Below, in pieces: positions 4,071-48,421 of a stretch of DNA of 64,000 bases (position 1 is its first letter; each line of letters opens with the position of its first letter). The notes below the pieces were generated by a model. The model did not search any database. It worked only from the letters and a program-made list of their open reading frames with translations, and had not been told where the DNA came from. The stretch lies in the NCBI RefSeq assembly GCF_055900595.2, contig NZ_CM148325.1; one strand, given 5' to 3'. The translations under genes were made by a program, and so were the position numbers.

Positions 4071-4211
4071 TACAGCTCCCCACGAAAAAGGTGCGGCGTT
4101 GTGGATAAGCGGATGGCGATTGCGGAAAGCACCGGAAAACGAAACGAAAAAACCGGAAAACGCCTTTCCCAATTTCTGTGGATAACCTGTTCTTAAAAAT
4201 ATGGAGCGATC

Positions 4212-18745: not shown

Positions 18746-24297
<5,552 letters not shown>

Positions 24298-27976: not shown

Positions 27977-28014
27977 TTAAGTCTCTGAGTTTTTACGCCG
28001 AACTCATACTAGTA

Positions 28015-28938
28015 TCAATAACCCTTATTCGCGTTTAACGGTTTTACCTCTTTTTTAAACGCTTCAATGGTAGATTTATATTTCTCGGAAATCTTTTCTT
28101 CGGTATAATTACCGTTTGCGGCCAGATTTGCACTTATAATCGCTTCCACTTGCTCGGTTATTTCCACTTGTTGGTAACCTGCATTAACCAGAAAATTATA
28201 AATAAGAGAGTAATCTTCACCCTGCAAAAAAATATAAGAGCCAGTTCGAAATTCCTCATCCCCTCCATAGATTTTAAGAGCAAAGCCCAAAGATTCTATG
28301 ACCATGGCATAATTTCCATTATTTATTTTCTCGCAAAAATACCATCCTTCACATTCTTTAATGCTACCTCCTGGCCCTTCAAGTTCAAATTTACCCCGTT
28401 TTAATTTGCTTACTACATTCTCAAAATAAGCAGAACCGTAAGACAAGCCACCCGCCGCCGTCCGAAAATAACCGTTAATCCTTTCAGGTATGTCAGACTG
28501 TTTTTTCTGCAAAATATCATAGGCATACAATCTTCTATTTTGTGCTAGTGGAAATTCACGGTTCTTAAAGTCTATAAATGAGTTATACTCATTTATTGTT
28601 ATAGAGATTTCTTCGTATTCAAATCCATTGCCTCGCAATGTCATTGTATATTCGGCACCGTTATCTTTAAGGCGGAAGCTGATAAGAAAATTATCCATGG
28701 CGTGAACGGTTTCATCTTTTGATGAAAGCACCTGATAACTATTTTTATCGATCTGTGTTGCTCTAAGAAAGAACTCCCTTAAAATTAACAGACTATCATA
28801 ATTCGAAATCCAATCCCTTTTCTTAAATGCATGCTGAATATTATTAAAGAAATTATTTGAATGTATTTTTGTATGCGATGACTTTACAAATAACTCCACT
28901 GCACCAAAAAAATTATTGTGTCTGATCTTGGGTAACAT
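28015..28938 (-). CDS. ytfI: Uncharacterized protein, AT-rich gene (YtfI-like by position)
   Basis: 307-aa ORF in a markedly AT-rich stretch with Asn/Lys/Tyr/Phe-rich composition; position between cysQ and ytfJ matches K-12 ytfI; no domain recognised. Confidence 0.6.
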   Translation of the reverse strand: MLPKIRHNNFFGAVELFVKSSHTKIHSNNFFNNIQHAFKKRDWISNYDSLLILREFFLRATQIDKNSYQVLSSKDETVHAMDNFLISFRLKDNGAEYTMTLRGNGFEYEEISITINEYNSFIDFKNREFPLAQNRRLYAYDILQKKQSDIPERINGYFRTAAGGLSYGSAYFENVVSKLKRGKFELEGPGGSIKECEGWYFCEKINNGNYAMVIESLGFALKIYGGDEEFRTGSYIFLQGEDYSLIYNFLVNAGYQQVEITEQVEAIISANLAANGNYTEEKISEKYKSTIEAFKKEVKPLNANKGY

Positions 28939-29150
28939 ATGACAACCTTATTATATTTGGTTATTCTATGTCGCCATTAAATATCTTGTTAAAGAAGTAA
29001 ACTATCAAAAAACGCTCATTATTAAAATATAACTTATTAGCGTTAGAATATTTACACTTTAAATACAATCCCTTTATATCTATAACTTTTTAGGTTGGAA
29101 ACAAATCAGGATGGCAGAATCAGGAAATACACTGTTTCTGCCATCTGTAT

Positions 29151-29891
29151 TTAATAAATAGAGACTCTGAACCCAGGATTCAGGAACGACTCGCGCGGGG
29201 TATAATCCAGCGGTTTACCCTGCCAGTCGTGAACGTGCGCTCCGGCCGCTGCCGCAACTGCGTGACCGGCAGCGGTATCCCAAATATTAGTTGGCCCGAA
29301 ACGCGGATAGAGTTGAGCCTGCCCTTCCGCCACCAGGCAGAATTTCAGCGAAGAGCCGATAGACGTGGTTTGATGTTCGCCAAGCTGTTGCAGATACTCT
29401 TTCAGCTCCGCATCCGCATGGGAACGGCTGATCACCACCAGCGGCGGGCGCGCATCGCGGACCTGAATCTGCTTGCGTACACCGCACTCTTCTTTCCAGG
29501 CTTTGCCGTCTGCCGCGCTGTACATTACGTTCATTACCGGCGCATACACCACACCTAAAATCGGTTTGCCGTGGTCGATGAGCGCAATATTAACGGTGAA
29601 TTCACCATTACGTTTAATAAACTCTTTAGTACCATCCAGCGGGTCTACCAGCCAGTAACGCTGCCAGTGTTGACGGACTTCCCAACCGGGAGGATCTTCT
29701 TCAGAAAGGACCGGAATATCCGGTGTCAGCGTACGTAAACCGTCCATGATAACGGTGTGTGCGGCAATATCCGCTGCCGTTACCGGAGAATTGTCCGCTT
29801 TGCTGACGACGTCCATCGGTTTCGTCCCGTCGTAGACCTGCATAATGGCATCGCCTGCATTCCGTGCAAGCTGGCATACTTGATCTAACAT
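29151..29891 (-). CDS. cysQ: 3'(2'),5'-bisphosphate nucleotidase
   Basis: 246-aa inositol monophosphatase-family ORF with the WLVDPLDGT motif. Confidence 0.9.
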
Positions 29892-30080
29892 TTCTCCACC
29901 TCGTCTCTGTGAGCGGTGTTAACTTGTTGTTTTACTTATACCCTATCGTTAAAGAATGCGCCAACTGTGATAGTGTCATCATTTTCAAAGCGTTAAATTG
30001 TGGCATTCTTCACTGTTCTAAAAGTAAGAGGTTTATTCTCCCTTTTCTTTCGAATTCCCGATGATAAAAGGATGTCCCTG

Positions 30081-37924: not shown

Positions 37925-38563
37925 ATGCCCGGGCGCTTTGAACTAAAACCAACCCTGGAGAAAGTCTGGCACGCGCCGGACAATTTTCGCTTCATGGACC
38001 CGCTACCGCCGATGCATCGTCGGGGGATCATTATTGCCGCTATTGTATTGGTGGTCGGATTTCTACTCCCGTCTGATGATACGCCAAACGCGCCGGTGGT
38101 GACGCGTGAAGCACAGTTAGATATTCAGTCGCAATCACAACCGCCGACAGAAGAACAGCTGCGGGCGCAATTAGTCACACCACAAAATGATCCTGATCAG
38201 GTGGCTCCGGTCGCTCCAGAACCGATACAGGAAGGCCAACCGGAAGAGCAGCCGCAAACCTCGCAAGTGCAACCTTTCCAGCCAGATAGCGGAATTGACA
38301 ATCAATGGCGCTCTTATCGTGTCGAACCCGGTAAAACAATGGCGCAGCTGTTCCGCGACCACGGACTGCCCGCTACCGATGTCTATGCAATGGCGCAGGT
38401 AGAAGGCGCAGATAAGCCACTGAGTAATTTGCAAAATGGGCAGATGGTGAAAATCCGCCAGAACGCCAGCGGCGTGGTGACGGGCTTAACCATTGATACG
38501 GGAAATAATCAACAGGTCCTGTTTACCCGCCAGCCGGATGGCAGTTTTATTCGCGCGCGGTAG
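37925..38563 (+). CDS. ytfB: OapA/LysM-domain cell-division-associated protein
   Basis: Start trimmed to [15 protein letters not shown] (about 212 aa); TM anchor, Pro/Gln-rich linker, C-terminal OapA-like domain. Confidence 0.75.
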
Positions 38564-39194
38564 ATGAAGGGTCAACCAGAAGCCAGCTAAGGATCGTCTC
38601 TTTGATGACCTTACGCCTGGCTTCCAGTGCCTGCGGTGAAACCATACTGATGTGATAAACCAGGCCAAGCGTATGTTGGTTGATCAAATAATATCCTCCA
38701 AGAGCAGCAATATTAATATTCACCTGCAACGGGTCGATATCTGGCTTAAAAATATTGCGCCGTTTGCCTTCAGCTAATAATGACTCCATTAACTGTAAGT
38801 GTGCGTGGTTAATTTCTAAAAGGCGCTGTGATTTTGCATAATGCACCCCTTTACTCTGGTTTTCACTATGCACAATTTTTAAAAACCAGGGGTTAGCAAT
38901 GTAATAATCCCAGGTGAAATCGATAATTTTCTCAATGGCTTTTTGTGGCGGAAGACCTGAGAAATCAAGGGATTTTTCTTTTTGCCGAATATCATTCCAG
39001 GTATATTCCAGCACTTCGATAAATAAATTTTCTTTATTACCAAAGTGATGATAAACCGTCTGTTTACTGCACTCCGCGGCCTTGACGATATTATCGACTC
39101 TGGCCCCTTCGTAACCATATTCGGCAAATTCATTAACCGCACATAACAACAGCTTTTCCTTCAGGCTTTGTACGTTGCTGGTATCAAGATACAT
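38547..39194 (-). CDS. TetR/AcrR-family transcriptional regulator, divergent from the island operon
   Basis: N-terminal TetR HTH ([45 protein letters not shown]); ATG at 39194 favoured over the GTG at 39254; occupies the position of K-12 ytfA. Confidence 0.7.
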
Positions 39195-39299
39195 TCCGCT
39201 TCCCCACGTCTTCTTCGTGATGACTATCTTAACCCGATTTGTTAGAAGCTCCACTAAAATGGCTAAAAACTCGCAATTTCATCGGGTTATCAAATGCTC

Positions 39300-39315
39300 T
39301 GTGATCATTATCGCA
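39300..39315. promoter_or_regulatory. CRP-like site TGTGA-N6-TCGCA in the divergent promoter region
   Basis: One mismatch to the TGTGA-N6-TCACA consensus; read by eye. Confidence 0.3.
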
Positions 39316-39316
39316 T

Positions 39317-39338
39317 ATCAACCAACTAGATGGTTGAT
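39317..39338. promoter_or_regulatory. Perfect inverted repeat ATCAACCA-N6-TGGTTGAT; candidate operator for the TetR-family regulator
   Basis: 22-bp palindrome between the divergent regulator and SDR genes, about 70 bp upstream of the SDR start. Confidence 0.4.
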
Positions 39339-39405
39339 CTTTCTTGCCACACATTGCAAGCTAATCGTCACTTAAGGAAATAATATTCAAAAAGAGGGTT
39401 ATTGT

Positions 39406-40197
39406 ATGAAGTCAACACGTCCTGTTGCTGTCATCACTGGAGCCGCACGTGGTATTGGAAAGGGCTGTGCACTGGAACTTGCGCGTGGCGGATTTAATCT
39501 GCTGATTAATGATCGTCCGGATGCCGACAGCGTAGAAAAATTACATGCCACACAACAAGAATGTCTGGCGGAAGGCGTGGAAGTGATTTGCTTCCCTGCT
39601 GATGTTGGCGATCTCTCCCTTCATGAAGAGATGCTCGACGCGGCGCAAAACCAGTGGGGACGTCTGGACTGTCTACTCAACAACGCAGGCATTTCAGTGA
39701 AAAAACGCGGTGACCTCCTCGACCTCGAACCAGACAGCTTCGACCAAAACATTGCCATTAACACCCGTGCGCCGTTCTTCCTTGCTCAGGCATTCAGTAA
39801 GCGATTACTGGCACAGCCGAAACCGGAAGCAGAACTGCCGCACCGCTCGATTATTTTTGTCAGTTCCATAAACGCCATCATGCTGGCGATGAATCGCGGC
39901 GAATATACCATTGCCAAAACTGCCGTCTCCGCCGCAGCTCGCCTGTTTGCCGCTCGCCTTTGCAATGAACAAATTGGCGTTTATGAAGTGCGCCCTGGCC
40001 TAATCAAAACCGATATGACCATTCCGGCAACGGCTTATTACGACGAACTGATTGCTAAGGGGTTAGTGCCGTGGGGACGTTGGGGTTATCCGGCTGATAT
40101 TGCCTCAACGGTCCGCGCGATGGCGGAAGGCAAACTGATTTACACCTGTGGTCAGGCGGTCGCCATCGACGGCGGCTTAAGTATGCCGCGCTTCTGA
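39406..40197 (+). CDS. Short-chain dehydrogenase/reductase (SDR)
   Basis: 263-aa ORF with the TGAARGIGKG Rossmann motif; AAGAGGG Shine-Dalgarno upstream. Confidence 0.75.
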   Translation: MKSTRPVAVITGAARGIGKGCALELARGGFNLLINDRPDADSVEKLHATQQECLAEGVEVICFPADVGDLSLHEEMLDAAQNQWGRLDCLLNNAGISVKKRGDLLDLEPDSFDQNIAINTRAPFFLAQAFSKRLLAQPKPEAELPHRSIIFVSSINAIMLAMNRGEYTIAKTAVSAAARLFAARLCNEQIGVYEVRPGLIKTDMTIPATAYYDELIAKGLVPWGRWGYPADIASTVRAMAEGKLIYTCGQAVAIDGGLSMPRF

Positions 40198-40206
40198 GGC
40201 TGAATC

Positions 40207-41049
40207 ATGAGAGATCTGTTACAACGCCCGGATTTATTCAGTATCAATACTGCGACACTGGGCTATAAAACACCGCTACCTGCCATTATTGATGCCTGCG
40301 CCGCACGCGGTATTGGCGCGATTGCCCCCTGGCGCAGGGAGTTACAGGGTGAAGATCTCCAACAAATCGCCCGCCAGCTTGCTGCCAGTAACATGAGCGT
40401 TTCCGGTTTGTGCCGTAGCACCTATTACACCGCGCCGACGCTGACGGAACGCAAACTGGCGATTGATGATAACCGCCGGGCGCTGGACGACGCCGCTGTA
40501 CTAAACGCCGCCTGTTATATGCAGGTGGTTGGCGGTCTGCCAATGGGAACAAAAGATCTGTACGAAGCGCGGGAACAAGTGAAACAAGGGATTCGCCAGT
40601 TGCTGCCACATTCGAAAGATGTCGGCGTGCCAATTGCGCTGGAGCCGCTGCACCCGATGACAGCTGCCGATCGCTCTTGCCTGTGCACGTTACGTCAGGC
40701 GCTGGACTGGTGTGATGAACTCGATCCCGATGGGGAGTTTGGCCTCGGCGTGGCGGTAGATGTCTACCACGTTTGGTGGGATCCGGATCTCGCCAGTCAG
40801 ATCCTGCGTGCCGGAAAACGCATCCTCGCGTTTCATGTTTCCGACTGGCTGGTGCCAACCACCGATTTAGTCAATGACCGGGGAATGCCGGGAGATGGCG
40901 TAATCAATATTCCGTCTATTCGTCGCCAGGTAGAAAATGCCGGATTTAACGGTGCTGTGGAACTGGAAATTTTCTCACCGTACTGGTGGCAGCAAGATAT
41001 TAACAGCACGTTGGATATTAGCGTCGATCGCATCGCGCATTATTGCTAA
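40207..41049 (+). CDS. Sugar phosphate isomerase/epimerase-like TIM-barrel protein (xylose isomerase-like fold)
   Basis: 280-aa ORF whose length and motif pattern fit the xylose isomerase-like TIM barrel family; 9-bp gap after the SDR gene. Confidence 0.65.
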   Translation: MRDLLQRPDLFSINTATLGYKTPLPAIIDACAARGIGAIAPWRRELQGEDLQQIARQLAASNMSVSGLCRSTYYTAPTLTERKLAIDDNRRALDDAAVLNAACYMQVVGGLPMGTKDLYEAREQVKQGIRQLLPHSKDVGVPIALEPLHPMTAADRSCLCTLRQALDWCDELDPDGEFGLGVAVDVYHVWWDPDLASQILRAGKRILAFHVSDWLVPTTDLVNDRGMPGDGVINIPSIRRQVENAGFNGAVELEIFSPYWWQQDINSTLDISVDRIAHYC

Positions 41050-41052
41050 GGA

Positions 41053-41835
41053 ATGATCATGAGTGACCAACCCGTTCTGTTCAGCAGAGCGGCGGCTTCC
41101 TGCCGCCTGACATTGAACCGTGAAGATAAATGTCATGCTATTAATGAAGAAATGATCGAATCTCTCGACCATTATTTAAATGAAATTGAAAACGACACCA
41201 CATTACGATTAGTCGAATTAACGGCAACCGGCGATAAATTCTTTTGTGCGGGCGGCGATATTAAATCGTGGTCGGCCTATTCGCCATTAGATATGGGCAG
41301 AAAATGGATTAAACGCGGCAATGACGTTTTTAATCGCCTGCGCAACTTACCCCAATTAACGGTTGCGAATCTCAACGGTCATACCATCGGCGGCGGTATT
41401 GAACTTGCCTTGTGCTGCGATATTCGTATTGCCCGCCCCAGTGCGAAATTCTCTAATCCGGAAGTAATGCTCGGCATGGTGCCTGGCTGGATGGGCATTG
41501 AACGCGTGCTTAATCAGGTCGGTCCGGTGGTCGGTCGCCAGATGCTGATGCTGGGTAAACGCCTGACGGCGCAGGAAGCTCAGGCGGCGAATTTAATTGA
41601 TGAAGTGGTAGAAAAAGAACAGGTGGAAAGCTGGATGGCGAATCAGTTAGCGCAGCTGGAAAAATGCGGTCCGGTGGCGCTCGCACATATCAAGCAACTG
41701 ATTCTGGCTCTAGAAAATAAACATGCTGATTACCCGCACCAGTTACTGGCTGGATTAATGTCCGCCACTCAGGATTGCCAGCAGGCGACGCGCGCATTTG
41801 CCGAAAAAAGTAGCGTGAGCTTCCAAAATCAATAA
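41053..41835 (+). CDS. Enoyl-CoA hydratase/isomerase (crotonase) family protein
   Basis: 260-aa ORF with FFCAGGDIKSW and GHTIGGGIELALCCD crotonase motifs. Confidence 0.75.
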   Translation: MIMSDQPVLFSRAAASCRLTLNREDKCHAINEEMIESLDHYLNEIENDTTLRLVELTATGDKFFCAGGDIKSWSAYSPLDMGRKWIKRGNDVFNRLRNLPQLTVANLNGHTIGGGIELALCCDIRIARPSAKFSNPEVMLGMVPGWMGIERVLNQVGPVVGRQMLMLGKRLTAQEAQAANLIDEVVEKEQVESWMANQLAQLEKCGPVALAHIKQLILALENKHADYPHQLLAGLMSATQDCQQATRAFAEKSSVSFQNQ

Positions 41836-41844
41836 GGAAATTGT

Positions 41845-43386
41845 ATGCGTAAGATAACAACCGCCGAGACACTGGCGGCGCAAATTCAGGACGGCGCAAC
41901 CATTGCCATTAGCGGTAATGGCGGCGGCATGGTGGAAGCGGACCATATTCTGGCTGCTATTGAAGCGCGTTTCCTGCAAACCGGACACCCGCGCGATCTG
42001 ACATTAATCCACTCACTGGGCATTGGCGATCGCGACTGCAAAGGCACTAACCGCTTCGCTCATGCAGAGATGCTCAAACGCATCATTGCCGGACATTTTA
42101 CCTGGTCGCCCAAGATGCAGGATCTGGTGAAAAACAATGCTATTGAAGCCTACTGCTTCCCTGGTGGCGTAATTCAGGCACTGCTGCGGGAGATCGGTGC
42201 CGGACGTCCAGGGCTTTTTACCCACGTTGGGCTGGGATCGTTTGTTGATCCGCGCAACGGCGGCGGTAAGTCGAACGCTAGCAGCACTGAGGATCTGGTA
42301 GAACTGATTGAAATCGACGGTGAAACCAAACTTCGTTATCGCCCCTTCAAAGTGGACTACGCGATTTTGCGTGGCACTTATGCCGATCCGCGTGGCAACG
42401 TCAGCCTCGAAGAAGAGGCGATTGATATGGATAGCTATTCCATGGCGCTGGCAGCACACAACAGCGGCGGCAAAGTGTTCGTACAGGTGCGCGATGTGCT
42501 GGAAGCTGGTGCCATTGAACCACGCCGGGTCAAATTACCGGGCATTCTGGTTGATGGCATCGTTGAACACCGCGAACAACCGCAAACCTATCTTGGCGGT
42601 TACGACCTGACCATCAGCGGTCAGCATCGCCGTCTAAGTTCTAACGACGCAATTGAACTGGTTAGTCATCCGGTGCGCCGCCTGATTGCCCGTCGGGCAG
42701 CACGCGAACTGGTGGCTGGCGCTTCAACCAACTTTGGCTTTGGCATTCCCGGCGGCATTCCTGGGGTTGCACTGCGCGAAGGCGTGCCTTATCAAAGTTT
42801 ATGGCTGAGCGTAGAACAGGGTGTACATAACGGCATGATGCTGGATGATGCTCTGTTCGGCTGCGCCCGCAACGCCGATGCCATTATTCCATCACTCGAT
42901 CAATTCGAATTCTACAGTGGCGGAGGGATCGATATCACCTTCCTCGGCATGGGAGAGATGGATCAGTACGGTAACGTCAACGTCTCCCATCTCAATGGCA
43001 ATCTCATTGGCCCCGGCGGATTTCTCGAAATTGCGCAAAACGCCCGTAAAGTGGTGTTCTGCGGCACGTTCGACGCCAAAGGTAGCACGATTGATGTAAC
43101 ACCAGATGGCTTGCATATCGCCCAGTCAGGTCAAATCCCTAAACTGGTTACCCAGGTGGAAAAAATCACTTTTAGCGCCGCCTACGCACAGCAAAGCGGT
43201 CAGGAAGTGTTGTATATCACTGAACGTGCAGTATTCCAGTTAACAGCAGAAGGCGTTGAATTAATTGAAATCGCACCAGGTGTGGAGATTGAGCGCGACA
43301 TTCTGCCGCATATGGCCTTCCGTCCAATTATCAATCAGCCACGCCTGATGGAAAGTAGCCTGTTTACGCCGATGGAGGATGCATGA
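41845..43386 (+). CDS. CoA-transferase family protein (fused alpha/beta, family I-like)
   Basis: 513-aa ORF with Gly-rich motifs typical of acyl-CoA:acetate/3-ketoacid CoA transferases and citrate lyase alpha-like proteins; 4-bp overlap with the next gene. Confidence 0.65.
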   Translation: MRKITTAETLAAQIQDGATIAISGNGGGMVEADHILAAIEARFLQTGHPRDLTLIHSLGIGDRDCKGTNRFAHAEMLKRIIAGHFTWSPKMQDLVKNNAIEAYCFPGGVIQALLREIGAGRPGLFTHVGLGSFVDPRNGGGKSNASSTEDLVELIEIDGETKLRYRPFKVDYAILRGTYADPRGNVSLEEEAIDMDSYSMALAAHNSGGKVFVQVRDVLEAGAIEPRRVKLPGILVDGIVEHREQPQTYLGGYDLTISGQHRRLSSNDAIELVSHPVRRLIARRAARELVAGASTNFGFGIPGGIPGVALREGVPYQSLWLSVEQGVHNGMMLDDALFGCARNADAIIPSLDQFEFYSGGGIDITFLGMGEMDQYGNVNVSHLNGNLIGPGGFLEIAQNARKVVFCGTFDAKGSTIDVTPDGLHIAQSGQIPKLVTQVEKITFSAAYAQQSGQEVLYITERAVFQLTAEGVELIEIAPGVEIERDILPHMAFRPIINQPRLMESSLFTPMEDA

Positions 43387-45455
43387 GTCAGCTTGATGAC
43401 ACCCTCCTTGATGCGCTGACGCACGTCACTTTCCCGAAGGGTTTTGCACAGGCAGAACCCGCATGGGTTGTCACGGTAGACGGTGTTGATTACCCACTCT
43501 GGCAAACAGATGCCCTGGTAGTCGGCAGTGGTGCAGCCGGGCTGCGTGCAGCTGTGGAACTTAAGCGCCGCCAGCAAAATGTGCTGATCGCCACCGCCGG
43601 GTTATATATGGGGACATCGGCATGTTCTGGTTCCGATAAACAGACGCTGTTTACCGCCGCTACCGCGGGCAACGGCGATAACTTCGCCAAACTGGCAGAG
43701 GCACTGGCGAGCGGCGGCGCAATGGATCACGATACCGCTTATGTTGAAGCGGTTGGTTCCCTGCACACTCTTGGCGGGTTGCAATATCTTGGTCTGGAAT
43801 TACCGGAAGATCGCTATGGCGCAATTCTTCGTTATCAAACCGACCATGACGAAGCCGGGCGAGCAACCTCGTGTGGGCCGCGGACCTCAAGGTTAATGGT
43901 GAAAGTACTGCTGGAAGAAGTACAGCGTCTCGCCATTCCAGTGTTGACCAGTGCAACAGTAATTAAACTGCTGCATCAGCGTGACGAAAACGGTGAAGAC
44001 CGCGTGGCGGGGGCAATCCTCGCGACCGGTCATCGTGCCCATAACCCATGGGGGCTGGCAATTGTGACTGCGCCCAATGTGGTACTGGCAACAGGAGGGC
44101 CTGGCGAGCTTTATCGTGACAGTGTGTACCCACACAAATGTTTCGGCTCGCTGGGGCTGGCGCTGGAAGAAGGTCTGACGTTAACGAATCTGACCGAAAG
44201 CCAGTTTGGTATAGGCACGCCGCGCAGCACCTTTCCGTGGAATTTATCCGGGACTTATGTACAGGTGATCCCATACATCTATTCGGTGGATGCCGGGGGC
44301 AACGAGTATAACTTCCTCGCAGATTACTATCGCACCACCCAGGAGCTGGCTTCAAACATCTTCCGTAAAGGCTATCAGTGGCCGTTTCACGCCACACGAG
44401 TGATGGATTTTGGCTCCAGCTTGTTAGATATGGCAGTAGCGCAAGAGCAGCAATCAGGACGTCAGGTATTTATGGATTTCAATCGCAATCCTGAACCTGT
44501 GCCGGGTGACCTGCCGTTCTCATTAGATCGACTGGACGACGACGTTCGCGCGTATCTGGAAAATAACGACGCTCTGGCACCATCGCCCATCGAACGACTG
44601 CAACGAATGAATCCGCTGTCTATCTCGCTGTATAAGATGCACGGTTACGATCTCACCACGCAGCCATTGCAGTTTGCCATGAATAATCAGCATATGAATG
44701 GCGGCATTGAAGTGGATATCTGGGGGCAAACCTCCCTGTCCGGCTGTTTCGCCGTGGGGGAAGTTGCTGGCACACACGGCGTCACTCGCCCTGGTGGTGC
44801 GGCATTGAATGCCGGGCAGGTTTTTGCTGTTCGTCTGGCACGTTTTATTGGTTGCACGCAAAAACGTAATATTGATGGAGATATAGCACAGCTGGTAGCT
44901 CCGGCACTGGCTTCTATAAGAGAGATCATTACTCAGGCGCACGATAACGGGACCGGGATGCCGTTGTCGGTTGTGAGGGAAAAAATTCAGGCACGAATGT
45001 CTGACCATGCGGGATTTATTTGTCATGCCGATAAAGTCCGACGCGCCACTCGTGATGCCCTGCTATTGAACGAATTTGTGCAACGGCATGGATTGGCAAT
45101 CAAACATGTGGGTGAAGTTGCCGAGCTGTTTATGTGGCGGCATATGGCGCTGACTTCTGCCGCGGTATTAACACAATTAACGCATTATATTGATGCTGGT
45201 GGTGGTAGCCGTGGGGCGCGTATGGTTATTGATCCACAAGGCAAATGCCTACCACAAACTCGTCGCGGCGCAAAAGAAGAATGGCGTTTTCGCTCTGAAC
45301 TCGCTGAAGACAAAAATCACAAATTAACAATTCAATATTCGCAAGGTTCTTTTATTACCGAAGTAAAGTCTTTACGTATGCAACCGTGTATTAACGGTAT
45401 TTACTTTGAAAAAAACTGGCCAGACTTTTTAAAGGGAGACATTTACACACAGTAA
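43383..45455 (+). CDS. FAD-dependent oxidoreductase of the succinate dehydrogenase/fumarate reductase/L-aspartate oxidase flavoprotein family, with a C-terminal extension
   Basis: 690-aa ORF with N-terminal VVGSGAAGLRAA dinucleotide-binding motif and C-terminal GEVAGTHGVTRPGGAALNAG motif. Confidence 0.7.
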   Translation: MSQLDDTLLDALTHVTFPKGFAQAEPAWVVTVDGVDYPLWQTDALVVGSGAAGLRAAVELKRRQQNVLIATAGLYMGTSACSGSDKQTLFTAATAGNGDNFAKLAEALASGGAMDHDTAYVEAVGSLHTLGGLQYLGLELPEDRYGAILRYQTDHDEAGRATSCGPRTSRLMVKVLLEEVQRLAIPVLTSATVIKLLHQRDENGEDRVAGAILATGHRAHNPWGLAIVTAPNVVLATGGPGELYRDSVYPHKCFGSLGLALEEGLTLTNLTESQFGIGTPRSTFPWNLSGTYVQVIPYIYSVDAGGNEYNFLADYYRTTQELASNIFRKGYQWPFHATRVMDFGSSLLDMAVAQEQQSGRQVFMDFNRNPEPVPGDLPFSLDRLDDDVRAYLENNDALAPSPIERLQRMNPLSISLYKMHGYDLTTQPLQFAMNNQHMNGGIEVDIWGQTSLSGCFAVGEVAGTHGVTRPGGAALNAGQVFAVRLARFIGCTQKRNIDGDIAQLVAPALASIREIITQAHDNGTGMPLSVVREKIQARMSDHAGFICHADKVRRATRDALLLNEFVQRHGLAIKHVGEVAELFMWRHMALTSAAVLTQLTHYIDAGGGSRGARMVIDPQGKCLPQTRRGAKEEWRFRSELAEDKNHKLTIQYSQGSFITEVKSLRMQPCINGIYFEKNWPDFLKGDIYTQ

Positions 45456-45547
45456 TTTTCAATATTTACTCTGTACCTGATTTTTATTGCCTATTACATG
45501 GAAATACCAACAACCAGGGTTTATTAATATAATTAAAAGGTTTAAAA

Positions 45548-46825
45548 ATGAATAAAATAAAGAATTATCGATGGCATATGATTGCCCTCGTATGCTTTAT
45601 CACTGTAATCAATTATCTGGACAGAACGGCGTTAGGTATTGCGGCTCCAACGATTATGGAGACAACCGGAATAACCAAAGAACAATATTCATGGATTGTC
45701 AGTGCATTCCAGTTGGCCTATACATTGGGGCAACCGGTAATGGGCTTCTTTATTGATACCGTGGGTCTGAAGTTAAGTTTTGCGATATGTGCCGCAATCT
45801 GGGGCCTGGCGACAATGGGGCATGCCTTGACAGGAACATGGTCAGGTCTGGCATTTATGCGCGCCCTGATGGGTTTCAGCGAAGCATCGGCAATTCCTGC
45901 GGGTGTAAAAACCGCATCAACATGGTTCCCGGCAAAAGAGCGTGGCGTGGCGACAGGTGTTTTCAATATGGGCACCTCACTCGGCGCGATGCTTGCTCCA
46001 CCGTTGATTGCCTGGTGCATTATGTTTCATAGCTGGCAATTTGCGTTTATTGTCTCAGGTAGCCTTGCTTTACTCGCGGCTTTATTTTGGTTCTTTTGTT
46101 ATAAAGATCCAAAAGATGCTAAACGCCTTTCTGATGAAGAGCGCCACTATATTGAGTCTGGGCAAGAACAGCATCTTAAAACAGATAAGAAAGAAAAAAC
46201 GTCAATCAAGCATATCCTCAGCCAACGTAATTTCTGGGGGATTGGCATCGCGCGTTTTCTCGCTGACCCGGCATGGGGAACCATTAACTTCTGGGTACCG
46301 ATTTTCTTCGTCGAAACGCTGCATTTTAGCCTGAAAGAAATTGCCATGTTCGTCTGGCTGCCTTTCCTGCTGGGCGATCTCGGCTGTTTAGCCAGTGGTT
46401 TTGTCGCGAAGTTCTTCCACGATCGCGGCGTGAGTTTAATTAACTCACGAAGAATTACCTTCACTATTGCAGCCGTCATTATGATGACGATTGGTCTGGT
46501 GAGTATTGTCGAAAATCCCTACATCGCCGTATTACTGATTAGCATTGGCGCATTCTCGCATCAATGTCTTTCTACTGTTGCAGCAACTCTGGGCGGTGAC
46601 CTATTCAAAAAAGACGAAGTAGCTACCGCTGTGGGTATGGCAGGAGCCTGTGCATGGAGCGGTCAGTTGATTTTCAACCTGTTTATCGGGGCATTCGTTC
46701 ACATTATTGGCTTCGCGCCGTTCTTTATTGCCCTGGCTTTCTTTGACATTATTGGTGCTATTGCGTTGTGGACGCTTATCAAAGTTAAAGATGAAGAACC
46801 ACAAGTACAGTTAGCTACCCACTAA
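45548..46825 (+). CDS. MFS transporter, anion:cation symporter (ACS) family, ExuT/GudP-like (acidic sugar or organic acid uptake)
   Basis: 425-aa 12-TM ORF whose N-terminus (NYLDRTALGIAAPTIME) resembles hexuronate/glucarate transporters. Confidence 0.8.
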   Translation: MNKIKNYRWHMIALVCFITVINYLDRTALGIAAPTIMETTGITKEQYSWIVSAFQLAYTLGQPVMGFFIDTVGLKLSFAICAAIWGLATMGHALTGTWSGLAFMRALMGFSEASAIPAGVKTASTWFPAKERGVATGVFNMGTSLGAMLAPPLIAWCIMFHSWQFAFIVSGSLALLAALFWFFCYKDPKDAKRLSDEERHYIESGQEQHLKTDKKEKTSIKHILSQRNFWGIGIARFLADPAWGTINFWVPIFFVETLHFSLKEIAMFVWLPFLLGDLGCLASGFVAKFFHDRGVSLINSRRITFTIAAVIMMTIGLVSIVENPYIAVLLISIGAFSHQCLSTVAATLGGDLFKKDEVATAVGMAGACAWSGQLIFNLFIGAFVHIIGFAPFFIALAFFDIIGAIALWTLIKVKDEEPQVQLATH

Positions 46826-47094
46826 TTATTTTAAATAAAAACGCTATAATTGAGGTTATGGCGTTTTTAAAGAAGCTTGAGTTATCGAACCTAGCTTACC
46901 AACGCGTTGTCAGTCATCTCCCCCCTCCCTGGTGCATCGTTATATCCGTGATGAGCGATTTTTGATATTAATATCTTTCACCATCCGCTATTTTCACCAC
47001 TTCAGAAAACAAACTTATTTTTATTAATATCAATTCTTTTTCTTTGAACATTCAACTGCGATATTTGTAAAAATATTAAACAGGCAACAATAAA

Positions 47095-47889
47095 ATGACA
47101 TTACCAACAACTATTTATTCATTCCCCGCATATTTACCTCGTTTTTCGTCCACCGACAAACCAGCAAAACTAAAATTTCATCAATACGCACGCGCTACAT
47201 TACTGTCAAATCGTGGAAGAGATCATAATTGCGATGGCAGACGTACTGTTGAGATCCACAAACTAGATCTCTCAGACTGGCAAGCATTCAATAAGCTAGC
47301 GACGAGGTGTAATACTTACGATGGAATAACAATGAATGGTGATAATTCTTTTGGATGGAACCATGAAGCTACATTAGATAATATTCACGCCCAGAAATAC
47401 AATAAAGCTTACGCGGGTGCGCGGTTAACCGCAGAACTGAAATATTTATTGCAAGATGTCGAATCCTTCGAACCCAACAGTAAATACACAATACACGAAG
47501 TGGTTTTGGGACCTGGTTATGGTACTCCAGACTATACCGGCCAAACGATAGGATACGTTGTAACCCTTCCTGCCCAAATGCCTAATTGCTGGTCATCTGA
47601 ACTACCAACAATCGATCTTTATATCGACCAACTTCGCACTGTTACAGGCGTTTCTAATGCCCTCGGATTCATCATTGCTGCATTGCTAAACGCGTATTCT
47701 GATTTACCCCATGATTTGAAAATTGGTCTACGTTCCTTATCAAATTCAGCCGCAATCTACTCGGGTTTAGGTTTCGAGCGAGTGCCGCAGGACCGAGACA
47801 TAAGGAGTGATCGTATGCATCTAACGCCAGCAAACCATCCTGACTTATGGACACAAGAGAATGGTGAATGGATCTACTTGCGAAATTAA
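47095..47889 (+). CDS. yjfZ: Uncharacterized protein YjfZ
   Basis: 264-aa ORF in an AT-rich context; length and position next to rplI match K-12 yjfZ as I recall it. Confidence 0.65.
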   Translation: MTLPTTIYSFPAYLPRFSSTDKPAKLKFHQYARATLLSNRGRDHNCDGRRTVEIHKLDLSDWQAFNKLATRCNTYDGITMNGDNSFGWNHEATLDNIHAQKYNKAYAGARLTAELKYLLQDVESFEPNSKYTIHEVVLGPGYGTPDYTGQTIGYVVTLPAQMPNCWSSELPTIDLYIDQLRTVTGVSNALGFIIAALLNAYSDLPHDLKIGLRSLSNSAAIYSGLGFERVPQDRDIRSDRMHLTPANHPDLWTQENGEWIYLRN

Positions 47890-47910
47890 TGCCTGACGAA
47901 AAATAGAAAG

Positions 47911-47939
47911 CAAAACGCCGACCAATGGTCGGCGTTTTT
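47911..47939. terminator. Bidirectional rho-independent terminator between yjfZ and the rpsF operon
   Basis: ACGCCGACC-AATG-GGTCGGCGT stem flanked by AAAA upstream and TTTTT downstream. Confidence 0.7.
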
Positions 47940-47959
47940 ACGTCTCGTTGAATAACGAA

Positions 47960-48421
<462 letters not shown>

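What the first reader, a model, noticed from the sequence alone, without database searches (positions are those of the whole stretch)
41053..45455. Crotonase, CoA-transferase and fumarate-reductase-like flavoprotein module with translational coupling
The CoA-transferase and flavoprotein genes overlap by 4 bp (ATGA at 43383-43386), suggesting co-expression and possibly a complex. A fumarate-reductase-family flavoprotein, rather than an acyl-CoA dehydrogenase fold, next to a crotonase and a CoA-transferase suggests enoyl-CoA or enoate redox chemistry. The CoA-transferase shows VEQG where I recall family I enzymes having an ENG-type catalytic glutamate motif, so the catalytic residue placement needs checking. 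The flavoprotein has about 200 extra C-terminal residues beyond the recalled core family.
Basis: inference. Interest (0 to 1): 0.65.

Follow-up and report, generated by a model that had tools for sequence, protein, structure and literature searches.

The report
Uncharacterised uronate-type sugar-acid operon
The three flagged genes are the middle of a seven-gene, repressor-controlled operon, carried by over half of E. coli strains but deleted in K-12, that most likely breaks down a uronic-acid-like sugar acid using an unstudied branch of the succinate-dehydrogenase flavoprotein family.

Summary
The ORFs, the ATGA overlap (43383-43386), the VEQG motif and the long flavoprotein tail are all real, but each is ordinary. 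VEQG carries the catalytic glutamate (E324), which aligns with YdiF E333 and the SENG motif of SCOT. The "extra" C-terminal residues are the normal helical and C-terminal domains of SdhA/FrdA/NadB-type flavoproteins. Four-base overlaps and tight gene spacing are common in this window.

The real unit is 38547-46825: TetR | SDR, TIM-barrel, crotonase, CoA-transferase, flavoprotein, transporter. It sits between ytfB and yjfZ/rplI in Escherichia, Klebsiella and Salmonella. About 58% of complete E. coli genomes have it. K-12 keeps only the ytfA remnant.

The transporter is 47% identical to the hexuronate transporter ExuT. In an alternative E. coli haplotype it is replaced by a TRAP system whose binding protein falls with glucuronate/galacturonate binders.

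Across 73 loci the flavoprotein's usual partners are sugar-type oxidoreductases, not CoA enzymes. It keeps the flavin-side His/Arg pair but lacks the covalent His and the capping-domain His, so it is not a fumarate reductase.

Best reading: a catabolic operon for a hexuronate-like acid. The exact chemistry, and the role of the CoA-transferase/crotonase pair, remain open.

The parts
38547..39254 (-). TetR/AcrR-family repressor, divergently transcribed. RefSeq orthologue starts at the equivalent of 39194. The K-12 pseudogene ytfA is its 3' remnant.
   Evidence: ORF. TetR_N/TetR_C_29 in orthologues. RefSeq annotation in L001. K-12 remnant mapping.
39300..39315 (+). CRP-like site TGTGATCATTATCGCA in the divergent promoter region.
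   Evidence: One of only 2 matches (<=1 mismatch) in 64 kb. The GTGA-N6-TC(A/G)CA core is kept in Klebsiella and Salmonella intergenic regions.
39317..39338 (+). 22-bp palindrome ATCAACCAACT/AGATGGTTGAT, the probable TetR operator.
   Evidence: Inverted repeat, 91% complementary. Almost invariant across Escherichia, Klebsiella and Salmonella while the flanks diverge.
39406..40197 (+). Classical SDR (PRK12745 type, FabG/KduD-like). This is the flavoprotein's most frequent partner across phyla.
   Evidence: NCBIfam NF009386, 420 bits, above cut-off; KduD models below cut-off. SDR within 6 kb of the flavoprotein in 29 of 73 loci.
40207..41049 (+). Xylose-isomerase-like TIM barrel (AP_endonuc_2), a keto-sugar isomerase/epimerase/dehydratase type.
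   Evidence: PDB 3qc0/3ju2 at E about 1e-85, both of unknown function; weak IolI and ketose 3-epimerase hits. Weak IolO and hydroxypyruvate isomerase hits. Near the flavoprotein in 12 of 44 close loci.
41053..41835 (+). Crotonase / enoyl-CoA hydratase with both catalytic Glu (E117, E137) and the FCAGGD oxyanion motif. RefSeq start is 41059.
   Evidence: NCBIfam and PDB hits; best is 3-hydroxypropionyl-CoA dehydratase 5zai, 1.5e-40. Motif positions.
41845..43386 (+). Fused alpha/beta family I CoA-transferase, a YdiF/propionate-CoA-transferase-type paralogue. The catalytic Glu324 codon is 42814-42816.
   Evidence: 39% identity to K-12 YdiF over the full length, E=7e-126. PDB 2ahu E=9e-114, with SVEQG aligned to TVETG and to SCOT SENG.
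43383..43386 (+). ATGA start/stop overlap between CoA-transferase and flavoprotein, preceded by GGAGG at 43374-43378.
   Evidence: Sequence. Conserved in L085, L086 and L093.
43383..45455 (+). 690-aa soluble FAD flavoprotein, an uncharacterised clade of the SdhA/FrdA/NadB superfamily. Features: GSGAAG 48-53; Thr78 where FrdA has the covalent His; invariant GSDKQT 83-88; Gly276 where FrdA/NadB have the capping His; KGYQWPF 329-335; His437 and Arg469; GGGSRG 606-611.
   Evidence: Pfam. Family alignment A1. AF2 model, pLDDT 92. Foldseek against PDB and AFDB. Profile alignments. 419 50%-identity clusters at E<1e-30.
45548..46825 (+). ACS-family MFS transporter, a paralogue of the hexuronate transporter ExuT.
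   Evidence: 47% identity to K-12 ExuT over the full length, E=1e-151. TIGR00893, 315 bits. Replaced by TRAP DctQMP in 1481 E. coli genomes.

Best explanation
The flagged genes are the centre of a seven-gene catabolic operon (38547-46825). Control: a divergent TetR repressor acting on a conserved 22-bp palindrome, probably with CRP. Substrate: most likely a hexuronate-like, polyhydroxylated carboxylic acid.

Shown:
- The operon is ancestral at the ytfB-rplI position in Escherichia, Klebsiella and Salmonella.
- It is under strong purifying selection.
- K-12 has lost it by deletion.
- Its importer is either an ExuT paralogue or a TRAP system whose binding protein belongs with the glucuronate/galacturonate binders.
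- The CoA-transferase is a normal YdiF-type family I enzyme with its catalytic Glu324.
- The crotonase has both catalytic glutamates.
- The flavoprotein has the full four-domain SdhA/FrdA/NadB fold and keeps the flavin-side His437/Arg469 pair that clamps a carboxylate. It lacks the covalent-FAD histidine, the capping-domain histidine and any Fe-S partner.

Inferred:
- The SDR, TIM barrel and flavoprotein form the conserved core. They work on the free sugar acid around a keto intermediate.
- The SDR interconverts hydroxyl and ketone. The TIM barrel isomerises, epimerises or beta-eliminates next to the ketone.
- The flavoprotein transfers hydride between FAD N5 and the carbon alpha or beta to the carboxylate or carbonyl. 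That means either alpha-hydroxy-acid to 2-keto-acid oxidation (as L-aspartate oxidase does on its amine) or C=C desaturation/reduction.
- In anaerobes an OYE-like FMN/[4Fe-4S] protein, sometimes fused to the flavoprotein, supplies or removes the electrons.
- The product is a 2-keto(-3-deoxy) acid that enters KdgK/Eda-type routes.
- The CoA-transferase/crotonase pair is a recurrent add-on. It probably activates a carboxylate as a thioester so that a beta-hydroxyl can be eliminated or added, as CaiB/CaiD do. This is the least certain step.

The ATGA overlap reflects ordinary polycistronic packing, not a special complex.
For: Operon and synteny:
- Annotation of E. coli EC42405, K. oxytoca, Salmonella and E. 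coli L65.
- 3150 of 5426 complete E. coli genomes carry the region.
- dN/dS is 0.013-0.047 for all five enzyme genes between the two E. coli haplotypes, with dS 0.16-0.40.
- K-12 deletion remnant.

Regulation:
- Palindrome and CRP-like site, both conserved across three genera.

Substrate class:
- MFS is 47% identical to ExuT.
- The alternative TRAP cassette is in 1481 genomes, the MFS in 1692.
- The TRAP binding protein's top 14 PDB hits (180-243 bits) include 4x8r, 4n8y, 4n15, 4n91 and 4mhf; the next hit drops to 156 bits.
- Ligands of those structures: 4N8Y galacturonate and 4X8R glucuronate (PMC11668362); 4N91 and 4MHF glucuronate/galacturonate, 4N15 used as template for a hexuronate binder (PMC7660916).
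- A minimal metagenomic cluster, TetR-SDR-flavoprotein-TIM-TRAP, has a binding protein of the same clade.
- Other loci carry organic-acid MFS transporters.

Core partners:
- In 73 loci: SDR 29, GMC pair 21, Gfo/Idh/MocA 25, OYE-like 16, KdgK-like PfkB 13, TIM 12, Eda 10, CoA-transferase 6, crotonase 6.
- OYE::flavoprotein fusion P0147.

Flavoprotein anatomy.

CoA-transferase.

Background: PF00890 enzymes reduce enoates using a carboxylate-binding Arg (bioRxiv 10.1101/2022.12.26.521950).
Against: - No experiment or paper on this operon or flavoprotein clade was found in ten literature searches, so the substrate is inferred from transporters and neighbours only.
- E. coli already has the Uxa/Uxu and KduID routes for glucuronate, galacturonate and unsaturated uronates. 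A second uronate system needs a different substrate or condition, which I cannot name.
- The role of the CoA-transferase and crotonase is not explained by the core model. Yet in enterobacteria they sit between the TIM barrel and the flavoprotein, and the transferase overlaps the flavoprotein.
- The catalytic proton-donor Arg of the capping domain could not be located by sequence.
- Flavoprotein contexts are heterogeneous: sugar ABC importers, a FucP-like MFS, an aromatic-acid-type MFS in Brenneria. The family may not have one substrate.
- The ligands of 4ovr and 4nx1/4ovp are recalled from memory, not verified.
Confidence: 0.5

Rival explanations
1. The acid is activated by the CoA-transferase. 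The crotonase dehydrates the 3-hydroxyacyl-CoA. The flavoprotein then reduces the enoyl-CoA, or desaturates the acyl-CoA in a beta-oxidation-like cycle with the SDR as 3-hydroxyacyl-CoA dehydrogenase. It may act as a transferase-flavoprotein complex.
For: - Gene set and order: SDR, crotonase, CoA-transferase and flavoprotein with tight spacing and a 4-nt overlap.
- The overlap is conserved in three genera.
- The transferase and crotonase recur near the flavoprotein in distant lineages: L012, L032, L043, L049, L068.
- L012 and L068 add acyl-CoA dehydrogenase, MaoC and ETF genes.
- K-12 ydiN-ydiB-aroD-ydiF-ydiO places the paralogous transferase next to a flavin dehydrogenase in the same way.
Against: - 67 of 73 flavoprotein loci have no transferase or crotonase within 6 kb. 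These include the closest non-Escherichia relatives, Brenneria and Pseudescherichia, whose clusters are TetR-SDR-(GFO)-TIM-flavoprotein.
- The minimal TetR-SDR-flavoprotein-TIM-TRAP cluster has no CoA enzyme.
- The E. coli flavoprotein shares all family-invariant residues with those proteins.
- No thiolase is present.
- The TIM barrel is unexplained by this model.
- A linker-fused AF2 model gave pTM 0.62 with a poorly folded transferase half, so it offers no support.
Confidence: 0.2
2. The substrate is a hydroaromatic or alicyclic acid (quinate/shikimate-like, a carbocyclic look-alike of a pyranuronate). The SDR makes the ring ketone. The TIM barrel dehydrates or isomerises. The flavoprotein reduces or introduces the ring C=C next to the carboxylate or ketone, as shikimate enoate reductases and KstD/cyclohexanone dehydrogenase do. 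The CoA steps resemble cyclohexanecarboxyl-CoA metabolism.
For: - PF00890 flavin reductases reduce the enoate of shikimate in gut bacteria (bioRxiv 10.1101/2022.12.26.521950).
- The Brenneria cluster ends in a PcaK-like aromatic-acid/H+ symporter.
- TIM shows weak similarity to inosose isomerase IolI.
- The YdiF paralogue sits beside quinate/shikimate dehydrogenase and AroD in K-12.
- Gfo/Idh/MocA partners resemble inositol dehydrogenases.
Against: - The E. coli transporters are specifically ExuT-like (47% identity) or fall in the hexuronate-binding TRAP clade.
- KdgK-like kinase and Eda aldolase neighbours point to open-chain keto-deoxy sugar acids.
- TIM gave no hit to 3-dehydroshikimate dehydratases at E<0.01.
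Confidence: 0.12
3. The island is a decaying or silent remnant with no current function, and its features are incidental.
For: It is lost in K-12 and absent from about 42% of complete E. coli genomes. Some alleles carry in-frame transferase::flavoprotein deletions, P0003 and P0030.
Against: - dN/dS is 0.013-0.047 at dS up to 0.4 in all five enzyme genes.
- ORFs are intact in three genera at the same locus.
- Regulatory sites are conserved.
- The transporter cassette has been exchanged while the enzymes were kept.
Confidence: 0.03

Closest known systems
E. coli YdiF (PDB 2ahu/2ahv/2ahw) and propionate-CoA-transferase-type family I CoA-transferases
   Same: Single-chain fused alpha/beta architecture. 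39% identity over the full length. The catalytic glutamate is in the same position: E324 against E333, with (S/T)VE(Q/T)G aligned to SCOT SENG.
   Different: It is a paralogue in a different operon, and its substrate is unknown. YdiF itself has no established physiological role (my own knowledge).
FrdA/SdhA flavoprotein subunits and L-aspartate oxidase NadB
   Same: Four-domain fold (Foldseek probability 1.0, TM 0.78-0.79 on FrdA). GxGxxG motif. The flavin-domain His and Arg (H437/R469, aligned to the HYxMGG and HGxNRxG motifs). The SRG motif of the helical domain. Non-covalent FAD is expected, as in NadB.
   Different: - 15-18% identity.
- Thr in place of the flavinylated His.
- Invariant Gly in place of the capping-domain His of QFHPT.
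- A capping domain about 40 residues longer, with its own invariant motifs (WNLSGTY, KGYQWPF).
- About 40 extra N-terminal residues.
- No Fe-S or membrane subunits.
- All curated NCBIfam models score far below cut-off.
NADH:enoate reductases that combine an OYE-like module with a PF00890 module (acrylate and cinnamate reductases), and the gut respiratory flavin reductases
   Same: In the distant half of the family an OYE-like FMN/[4Fe-4S] protein is adjacent (16 of 29 loci) or fused (P0147). PF00890 enzymes reduce C=C next to a carboxylate.
   Different: Those enzymes use the short flavocytochrome-c3/UrdA-type PF00890 domain, without the helical domain, and often an FMN_bind module (partly my own knowledge). 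The E. coli operon has no OYE partner and no secretion signal.
E. coli cai operon (CaiT, CaiA, CaiB, CaiD)
   Same: The logic is a transporter, a CoA-transferase, a crotonase dehydratase and a flavoprotein acting on the resulting C=C (my own knowledge of the pathway).
   Different: CaiB is a family III transferase and CaiA has an acyl-CoA dehydrogenase fold. Here the transferase is family I and the flavoprotein is FrdA-like. The SDR and TIM barrel have no counterpart in cai.
Hexuronate systems of E. coli: ExuT with UxaC/UxuAB/UxaAB, and KduI/KduD
   Same: The transporter is an ExuT paralogue (47%). The SDR is KduD/FabG-like. A TIM-barrel isomerase-type enzyme is present.
   Different: There is no UxaC, UxuA/UxaA dehydratase or KduI homologue. 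The SDR scores far below the KduD cut-offs (117 against 339 bits). The regulator is TetR, not ExuR or KdgR.

Membership tests
Family I CoA-transferase (YdiF/SCOT type) | CoA_trans fold in both halves of a fused chain | tested here: met
   PF01144 over residues 6-241. pcaI_scoA and pcaJ_scoB models hit residues 4-244 and 278-483. Full-length alignment to YdiF.
Family I CoA-transferase (YdiF/SCOT type) | Catalytic glutamate in the (S/V)E(N/T/Q)G motif of the beta half | tested here: met
   E324 in SVEQG aligns with E333 of YdiF TVETG and with the E of pig SCOT QSENG (position). The catalytic role of YdiF E333 is from my own knowledge.
Family I CoA-transferase (YdiF/SCOT type) | CoA-transfer activity through a glutamyl-CoA thioester | not testable with these tools
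   Needs enzymology.
SdhA/FrdA/NadB flavoprotein superfamily (PF00890) | N-terminal dinucleotide-binding motif and FAD_binding_2 domain | tested here: met
   PF00890 over residues 43-475, E=2e-25. G48/G50/A52 are invariant in A1.
SdhA/FrdA/NadB flavoprotein superfamily (PF00890) | Four-domain architecture: FAD, capping, helical, C-terminal | tested here: met
   AF2 model pLDDT 92, pTM 0.93. Foldseek against FrdA/SdhA gives 660-700 aligned columns, TMt up to 0.79. The helical-domain SRG motif aligns.
SdhA/FrdA/NadB flavoprotein superfamily (PF00890) | Flavin-domain His and Arg that bind the substrate carboxylate (FrdA H355/R390; NadB H351/R386) | tested here: met
   QH437MNGG and THGVTR469PGG align to HYxxGG and HGANR. 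Both residues are invariant in 41 sequences.
Fumarate reductase / succinate dehydrogenase proper | Covalent 8-alpha-histidyl FAD (FrdA H44) | tested here: not met
   The H of the W. succinogenes FrdA RSHS motif aligns with Thr78.
Fumarate reductase / succinate dehydrogenase proper | Capping-domain His of QFHPT (FrdA H232; NadB H244) | tested here: not met
   The query has ESQFG276IG. Gly276 is invariant in the family, and profile alignments stop at QF.
Fumarate reductase / succinate dehydrogenase proper | Capping-domain proton-donor Arg (FrdA R287) | tested here: inconclusive
   The capping domain does not align by sequence. R405 aligns with the non-catalytic RLP/RFP position instead. Model coordinates could not be inspected.
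Fumarate reductase / succinate dehydrogenase proper | Fe-S (SdhB/FrdB/TfrB) partner subunit | tested here: not met
   None in the operon or its orthologues.
L-aspartate oxidase (NadB) | Score above the curated equivalog cut-off | tested here: not met
   TIGR00551 scores 99.6 bits against a cut-off of 452.75. Other NadB models are likewise far below cut-off.
Crotonase / enoyl-CoA hydratase | ECH fold with two catalytic glutamates and the oxyanion-hole motif | tested here: met
   72 NCBIfam crotonase models hit, none reaching an equivalog cut-off. PDB hits include rat ECH 1dub. GGGIE117L, NPE137VMLG and FCAGGD are at the expected spacing (motif assignment from my own knowledge).
Hexuronate uptake systems (ExuT; hexuronate-binding TRAP proteins) | Close homology to a transporter or binding protein with shown hexuronate specificity | tested here: met
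   47% identity to ExuT. The TRAP binding protein of the alternative haplotype scores 205-243 bits to 4x8r, 4n8y, 4n15, 4n91 and 4mhf, whose ligands are given in PMC11668362 and PMC7660916. Specificity itself was not tested.
KduD (2-dehydro-3-deoxy-D-gluconate 5-dehydrogenase) | Score above the curated cut-off | tested here: not met
   TIGR01832 scores 116.9 bits against a cut-off of 338.85. The SDR is instead an above-cut-off member of PRK12745, a family with no known function.

The most novel reading that the evidence does not exclude
More than half of E. coli strains, plus Salmonella and Klebsiella lineages, carry a so-far undescribed route for a uronic-acid-type sugar acid. In it, a new clade of FrdA/NadB-like flavoenzymes oxidises or desaturates the acid next to its carboxylate. 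A family I CoA-transferase and a crotonase carry out thioester-assisted (de)hydration. That would be CoA-dependent sugar-acid chemistry with no described precedent for hexuronates. It could account for uronates whose bacterial fate is unclear, such as L-iduronate or other C5/C4 epimers.
Probability: 0.3. Interest if true: 0.75.

Novelty: new variant of a known kind. Interest (0 to 1): 0.55.

Why it matters
K-12 lost this operon, which is probably why a seven-gene metabolic unit has gone unstudied. It is present in about 58% of complete E. coli genomes and is syntenic in Salmonella and Klebsiella.

Uronic and other sugar acids are major gut carbon sources from host glycans, glucuronides and diet. 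A second, mechanistically different system would bear on niche use and colonisation.

The flavoprotein defines a large clade with no characterised member: 419 clusters at 50% identity, from Proteobacteria to Planctomycetota, Verrucomicrobiota and gut Firmicutes. Its active-site signature differs from that of fumarate reductase and aspartate oxidase. Assigning one member would annotate thousands of genes.

The natural MFS/TRAP cassette swap also gives an easy handle, the soluble binding protein, for finding the ligand.

Tried and rejected
- **Deoxyribonate acyl-CoA cluster of K. michiganensis.** I suspected the operon was this cluster. The paper describes a different gene set (CoA synthetase, hydroxyacyl-CoA dehydrogenase, thiolase, glycerate kinase). 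Rejected.
- **Literature.** Ten searches (gene names ytfA/ytfB/yjfZ, protein accessions, PDB codes 7VPF/3QC0/3JU2/SMc04130, enzyme combinations, quinate/shikimate, dihydroshikimate) found nothing on this operon or flavoprotein clade. ytfA appears only as a variably present TetR gene.
- **R405 as the catalytic Arg.** The ERLQRMNP stretch resembles GERFM, but the HMMER alignments place it at the RLP/RFP position before the His motif. Rejected.
- **TIM barrel as 3-dehydroshikimate dehydratase.** No such PDB hit at E<0.01. The close homologues are structural-genomics entries of unknown function.
- **BNR_4 protein in Phycisphaerae loci.** Pfam gives only a BNR_4 domain and no substrate clue.
- **Contigs for distant homologues.** Mostly too short to be informative.
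- **Transferase-flavoprotein complex.** I ran a 1200-residue linker fusion with a partly paired alignment. pTM was 0.62. The flavoprotein half was confident, but the transferase half had pLDDT 25-80 because only 9 transferase sequences were available. Inconclusive, and no interface metrics are returned.
- **Horizontal acquisition.** Not supported. GC content is normal and synteny holds across three genera.

Full report
**Observation**

The window is an Escherichia chromosome. The region 41053-45455 matches 3150 of 5426 complete E. coli genomes at 90-97% identity.

The transferase stop and the flavoprotein start overlap as ATGA at 43383-43386, behind a GGAGG at 43374-43378. This is real but ordinary. 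Another 4-nt overlap lies at 22522-22525. Of 39 same-strand neighbour pairs in the window, 18 are within 15 nt. The other junctions of this operon are 9, 3 and 9 nt.

**The real unit**

RefSeq annotation of a near-identical E. coli shows the flagged genes inside a block between ytfB and yjfZ/rplI:

- divergent TetR regulator
- SDR ('3-ketoacyl-ACP reductase')
- xylose-isomerase-like TIM barrel
- enoyl-CoA hydratase
- CoA-transferase
- FAD oxidoreductase
- MFS transporter

The same seven genes sit at the same chromosomal place, with the same 4-nt overlap, in K. oxytoca and Salmonella enterica. The operon is therefore old and vertically inherited, not a recent island.

K-12 has a deletion here. 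Only the 3' part of the TetR gene (annotated as pseudogene ytfA) and a 102-bp SDR fragment remain.

Between the two E. coli haplotypes, dS is 0.16-0.40 and dN/dS is 0.013-0.047 for all five enzyme genes. The genes are under strong purifying selection.

The divergent promoter region holds a CRP-like site (39300-39315) and an adjacent 22-bp palindrome (39317-39338). Both are conserved in Klebsiella and Salmonella while the flanks drift. This is the signature of a TetR-repressed, catabolite-controlled operon.

**CoA-transferase**

It is a fused alpha/beta family I enzyme, 39% identical over its whole length to K-12 YdiF (PDB 2ahu E=9e-114). In those alignments SVEQG (E324) lies on YdiF TVETG (E333) and on pig SCOT QSENG. 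The catalytic residue is where it should be, so there is no anomaly.

**Flavoprotein**

Pfam sees only FAD_binding_2 over residues 43-475. Every curated NCBIfam model (TfrA, NadB, SdhA/FrdA) scores far below its cut-off.

A search of 1.84 billion representatives found 419 clusters at E<1e-30. Most are 640-700 aa and match end to end, so the length is a family trait.

An AF2 model from a 41-sequence alignment is confident (pLDDT 92, pTM 0.93). Foldseek aligns it over 660-700 columns to FrdA and SdhA, with TM 0.78-0.79 on the target at 15-18% identity.

Residues 476-690 are therefore the usual helical bundle and small C-terminal domain. The family GGGSRG motif aligns with ESRGAH of W. succinogenes FrdA. 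The true additions are about 40 N-terminal residues and a capping domain roughly 40 residues longer.

Active-site reading by alignment:

- H437 (QHMNGG) and R469 (THGVTRPGG) correspond to the flavin-domain His and Arg that hold the substrate carboxylate in FrdA and NadB. Both are invariant.
- The flavinylated His of FrdA aligns with Thr78, so FAD should be non-covalent, as in NadB.
- The capping-domain His of QFHPT is an invariant Gly276.
- The rest of the capping domain carries its own invariant motifs: WNLSGTY, KGYQWPF and GSDKQT near the flavin.
- No Fe-S partner is encoded nearby.

It is a member of the superfamily, but it is neither a fumarate reductase nor an aspartate oxidase. AFDB50 neighbours are all unnamed. 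They include gut Firmicutes, Succinatimonas and many PVC bacteria.

**Genomic company of the flavoprotein**

I fetched 80 loci from GTDB species representatives. In the 73 loci with at least 9 kb, I counted relatives of candidate partners within 6 kb.

| Partner | Loci (of 73) | Restricted to |
|---|---|---|
| SDR of this type | 29 | – |
| Pair of GMC oxidoreductases | 21 | the 44 close (≥50% identity) loci |
| Gfo/Idh/MocA oxidoreductases | 25 | the 44 close loci |
| OYE-like FMN/[4Fe-4S] protein | 16 | the 29 distant (<50% identity) loci |
| KdgK-like PfkB kinase | 13 | the 44 close loci |
| TIM barrel | 12 | the 44 close loci |
| KDPG-type aldolase (Eda) | 10 | the 29 distant loci |
| CoA-transferase | 6 | – |
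| Crotonase | 6 | the 44 close loci |

One representative, P0147, is an OYE-like::flavoprotein fusion.

The nearest non-Escherichia relatives have TetR-SDR-(GFO)-TIM-(MFS)-flavoprotein with no CoA enzymes. These are Brenneria, Pseudescherichia, Mangrovibacter and Phytobacter. A metagenomic contig has the minimal set TetR-SDR-flavoprotein-TIM-TRAP.

So SDR, TIM barrel and flavoprotein are the conserved core, and that core does not need CoA esters.

The transferase/crotonase pair nevertheless recurs with the flavoprotein in unrelated lineages:

- Rhodobacter and Rubellimicrobium operons: GFO-flavoprotein-PfkB-transferase-crotonase-ALDH-sugar ABC importer.
- Devosia.
- A betaproteobacterium with TRAP, MaoC, acyl-CoA dehydrogenase and ETF genes.
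- A Desulfobacterales MAG.

These are documented. The pair is therefore a real but optional module.

**Substrate class**

The operon's MFS is 47% identical, end to end, to ExuT, the E. coli hexuronate transporter.

E. coli has a second haplotype. In it, the MFS and yjfZ are replaced by a TRAP transporter (DctQ, DctM, DctP) directly after the flavoprotein. In complete genomes, 1692 carry the MFS form and 1481 the TRAP form.

The TRAP binding protein's 14 best PDB matches score 180-243 bits, and the next hit drops to 156 bits. Those whose ligands I could check are glucuronate/galacturonate binders:

- 4N8Y binds galacturonate and 4X8R binds glucuronate (PMC11668362).
- 4N91 and 4MHF bind glucuronate/galacturonate, and 4N15 was used as the template for the hexuronate binder STM3169 (PMC7660916).

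The binding protein of the minimal metagenomic cluster belongs with the same group. Klebsiella and Salmonella carry a third ExuT-family variant, 51% identical to the E. coli MFS. Other loci have organic-acid MFS transporters.

Three independent importer types therefore point to a hexuronate-like polyhydroxy carboxylate.

**Mechanism**

Shown: the parts list, the conservation, the regulation sites, the catalytic residues of the transferase and crotonase, and the fold and partial active-site conservation of the flavoprotein.

Inferred:

- The SDR interconverts hydroxyl and ketone.
- The TIM barrel acts next to that ketone. Its only functional hints are weak matches to inosose isomerase, ketose 3-epimerases and 5-keto-L-gluconate epimerase.
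- The flavoprotein moves hydride between FAD N5 and the carbon alpha or beta to the clamped carboxylate. One possibility is alpha-hydroxy-acid to 2-keto-acid oxidation, the hydroxy analogue of the NadB reaction. That would fit the neighbouring 2-keto/KDG-type kinases. The other is C=C desaturation or reduction, which would fit the OYE partners and the known enoate chemistry of PF00890 enzymes.
- The transferase and crotonase most plausibly activate a carboxylate as a thioester to allow beta-hydroxyl elimination or addition, as in the carnitine system. The crotonase's best structural relative is 3-hydroxypropionyl-CoA dehydratase.

I could not assign this step with confidence.

**Rivals**

The core's independence from CoA enzymes counts against it.
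- A hydroaromatic-acid (quinate/shikimate-like) substrate is a chemically similar alternative (0.12). It is hinted at by the Brenneria PcaK-like transporter, by the K-12 ydiB-aroD-ydiF-ydiO arrangement and by known shikimate enoate reductases. The ExuT-like and uronate-type TRAP importers argue against it.
- A dead island is excluded by the selection data.

**Complex question**

A linker-fused AF2 prediction gave pTM 0.62 with an under-determined transferase half. It neither supports nor refutes a complex.

**Verdict**

The locus itself is an uncharacterised, widespread sugar-acid operon built around a new clade of a known flavoprotein superfamily.

Noticed in passing
window 45200-47900; L005 11103-13946; L093 9501-12345: E. 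coli carries two alternative 3' ends of the operon: an ExuT-like MFS plus yjfZ (1692 complete genomes) or a TRAP DctQMP cassette (1481). The exchange boundary lies inside the flavoprotein gene. The two flavoprotein alleles are 98-100% identical up to about residue 600, then only 64% and 44% identical in the last 90 residues.
   Followed up: yes
L087 (K-12 MG1655) 4088-4596 against window 38547-38949 and 39495-39596: The K-12 pseudogene ytfA is the 3' remnant of this operon's TetR gene. It is followed by a 102-bp fragment of the SDR gene. About 8 kb (window 38950-46926) is deleted in K-12.
   Followed up: yes
proteins P0003 (1078 aa) and P0030 (1043 aa), E. coli: Some E. coli carry an in-frame deletion that fuses the first ~395 residues of the CoA-transferase to residue 6 onward of the flavoprotein. 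This looks like a deletion allele rather than a functional fusion.
   Followed up: partly
protein P0147 (1084 aa); loci L064, L067, L077, L078, L080, L084: In anaerobe and PVC relatives, an OYE-like FMN/[4Fe-4S] protein is fused to or adjacent to the flavoprotein. In some it carries an added GltD-like NAD(P)H module. This suggests a dedicated electron-transfer partner that E. coli lacks.
   Followed up: partly
window 38501-45446 against L093: The two E. coli operon haplotypes differ by about 9% at the DNA level (dS up to 0.40). I believe this is far more than typical E. coli core-gene divergence, though that comparison was not computed here. It suggests old allelic lineages or import from a sister species.
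   Followed up: partly
window 41053-41061: The crotonase has two in-frame ATGs (ATGATCATGAGT). RefSeq orthologues start at the second one (41059), 9 nt after the TIM-barrel stop.
   Followed up: no
window 18746-24255, minus strand: Two large ORFs (18746-22525 and 22522-24255) share the same kind of 4-nt start/stop overlap as the flagged pair. Gene identities were not checked.
   Followed up: no
window 28001-30000 and 46001-48000: Two local G+C dips (0.416 and 0.422 against about 0.51 elsewhere). The second covers the end of the MFS gene and yjfZ (DUF2686).
   Followed up: no
L085 11128-12405; L086 11127-12404: The Klebsiella and Salmonella operons end in an ExuT-family MFS only about 51% identical to the E. 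coli one. By contrast, the transferase-flavoprotein sequences are about 84% identical. The transporter slot has therefore been exchanged more than once.
   Followed up: partly
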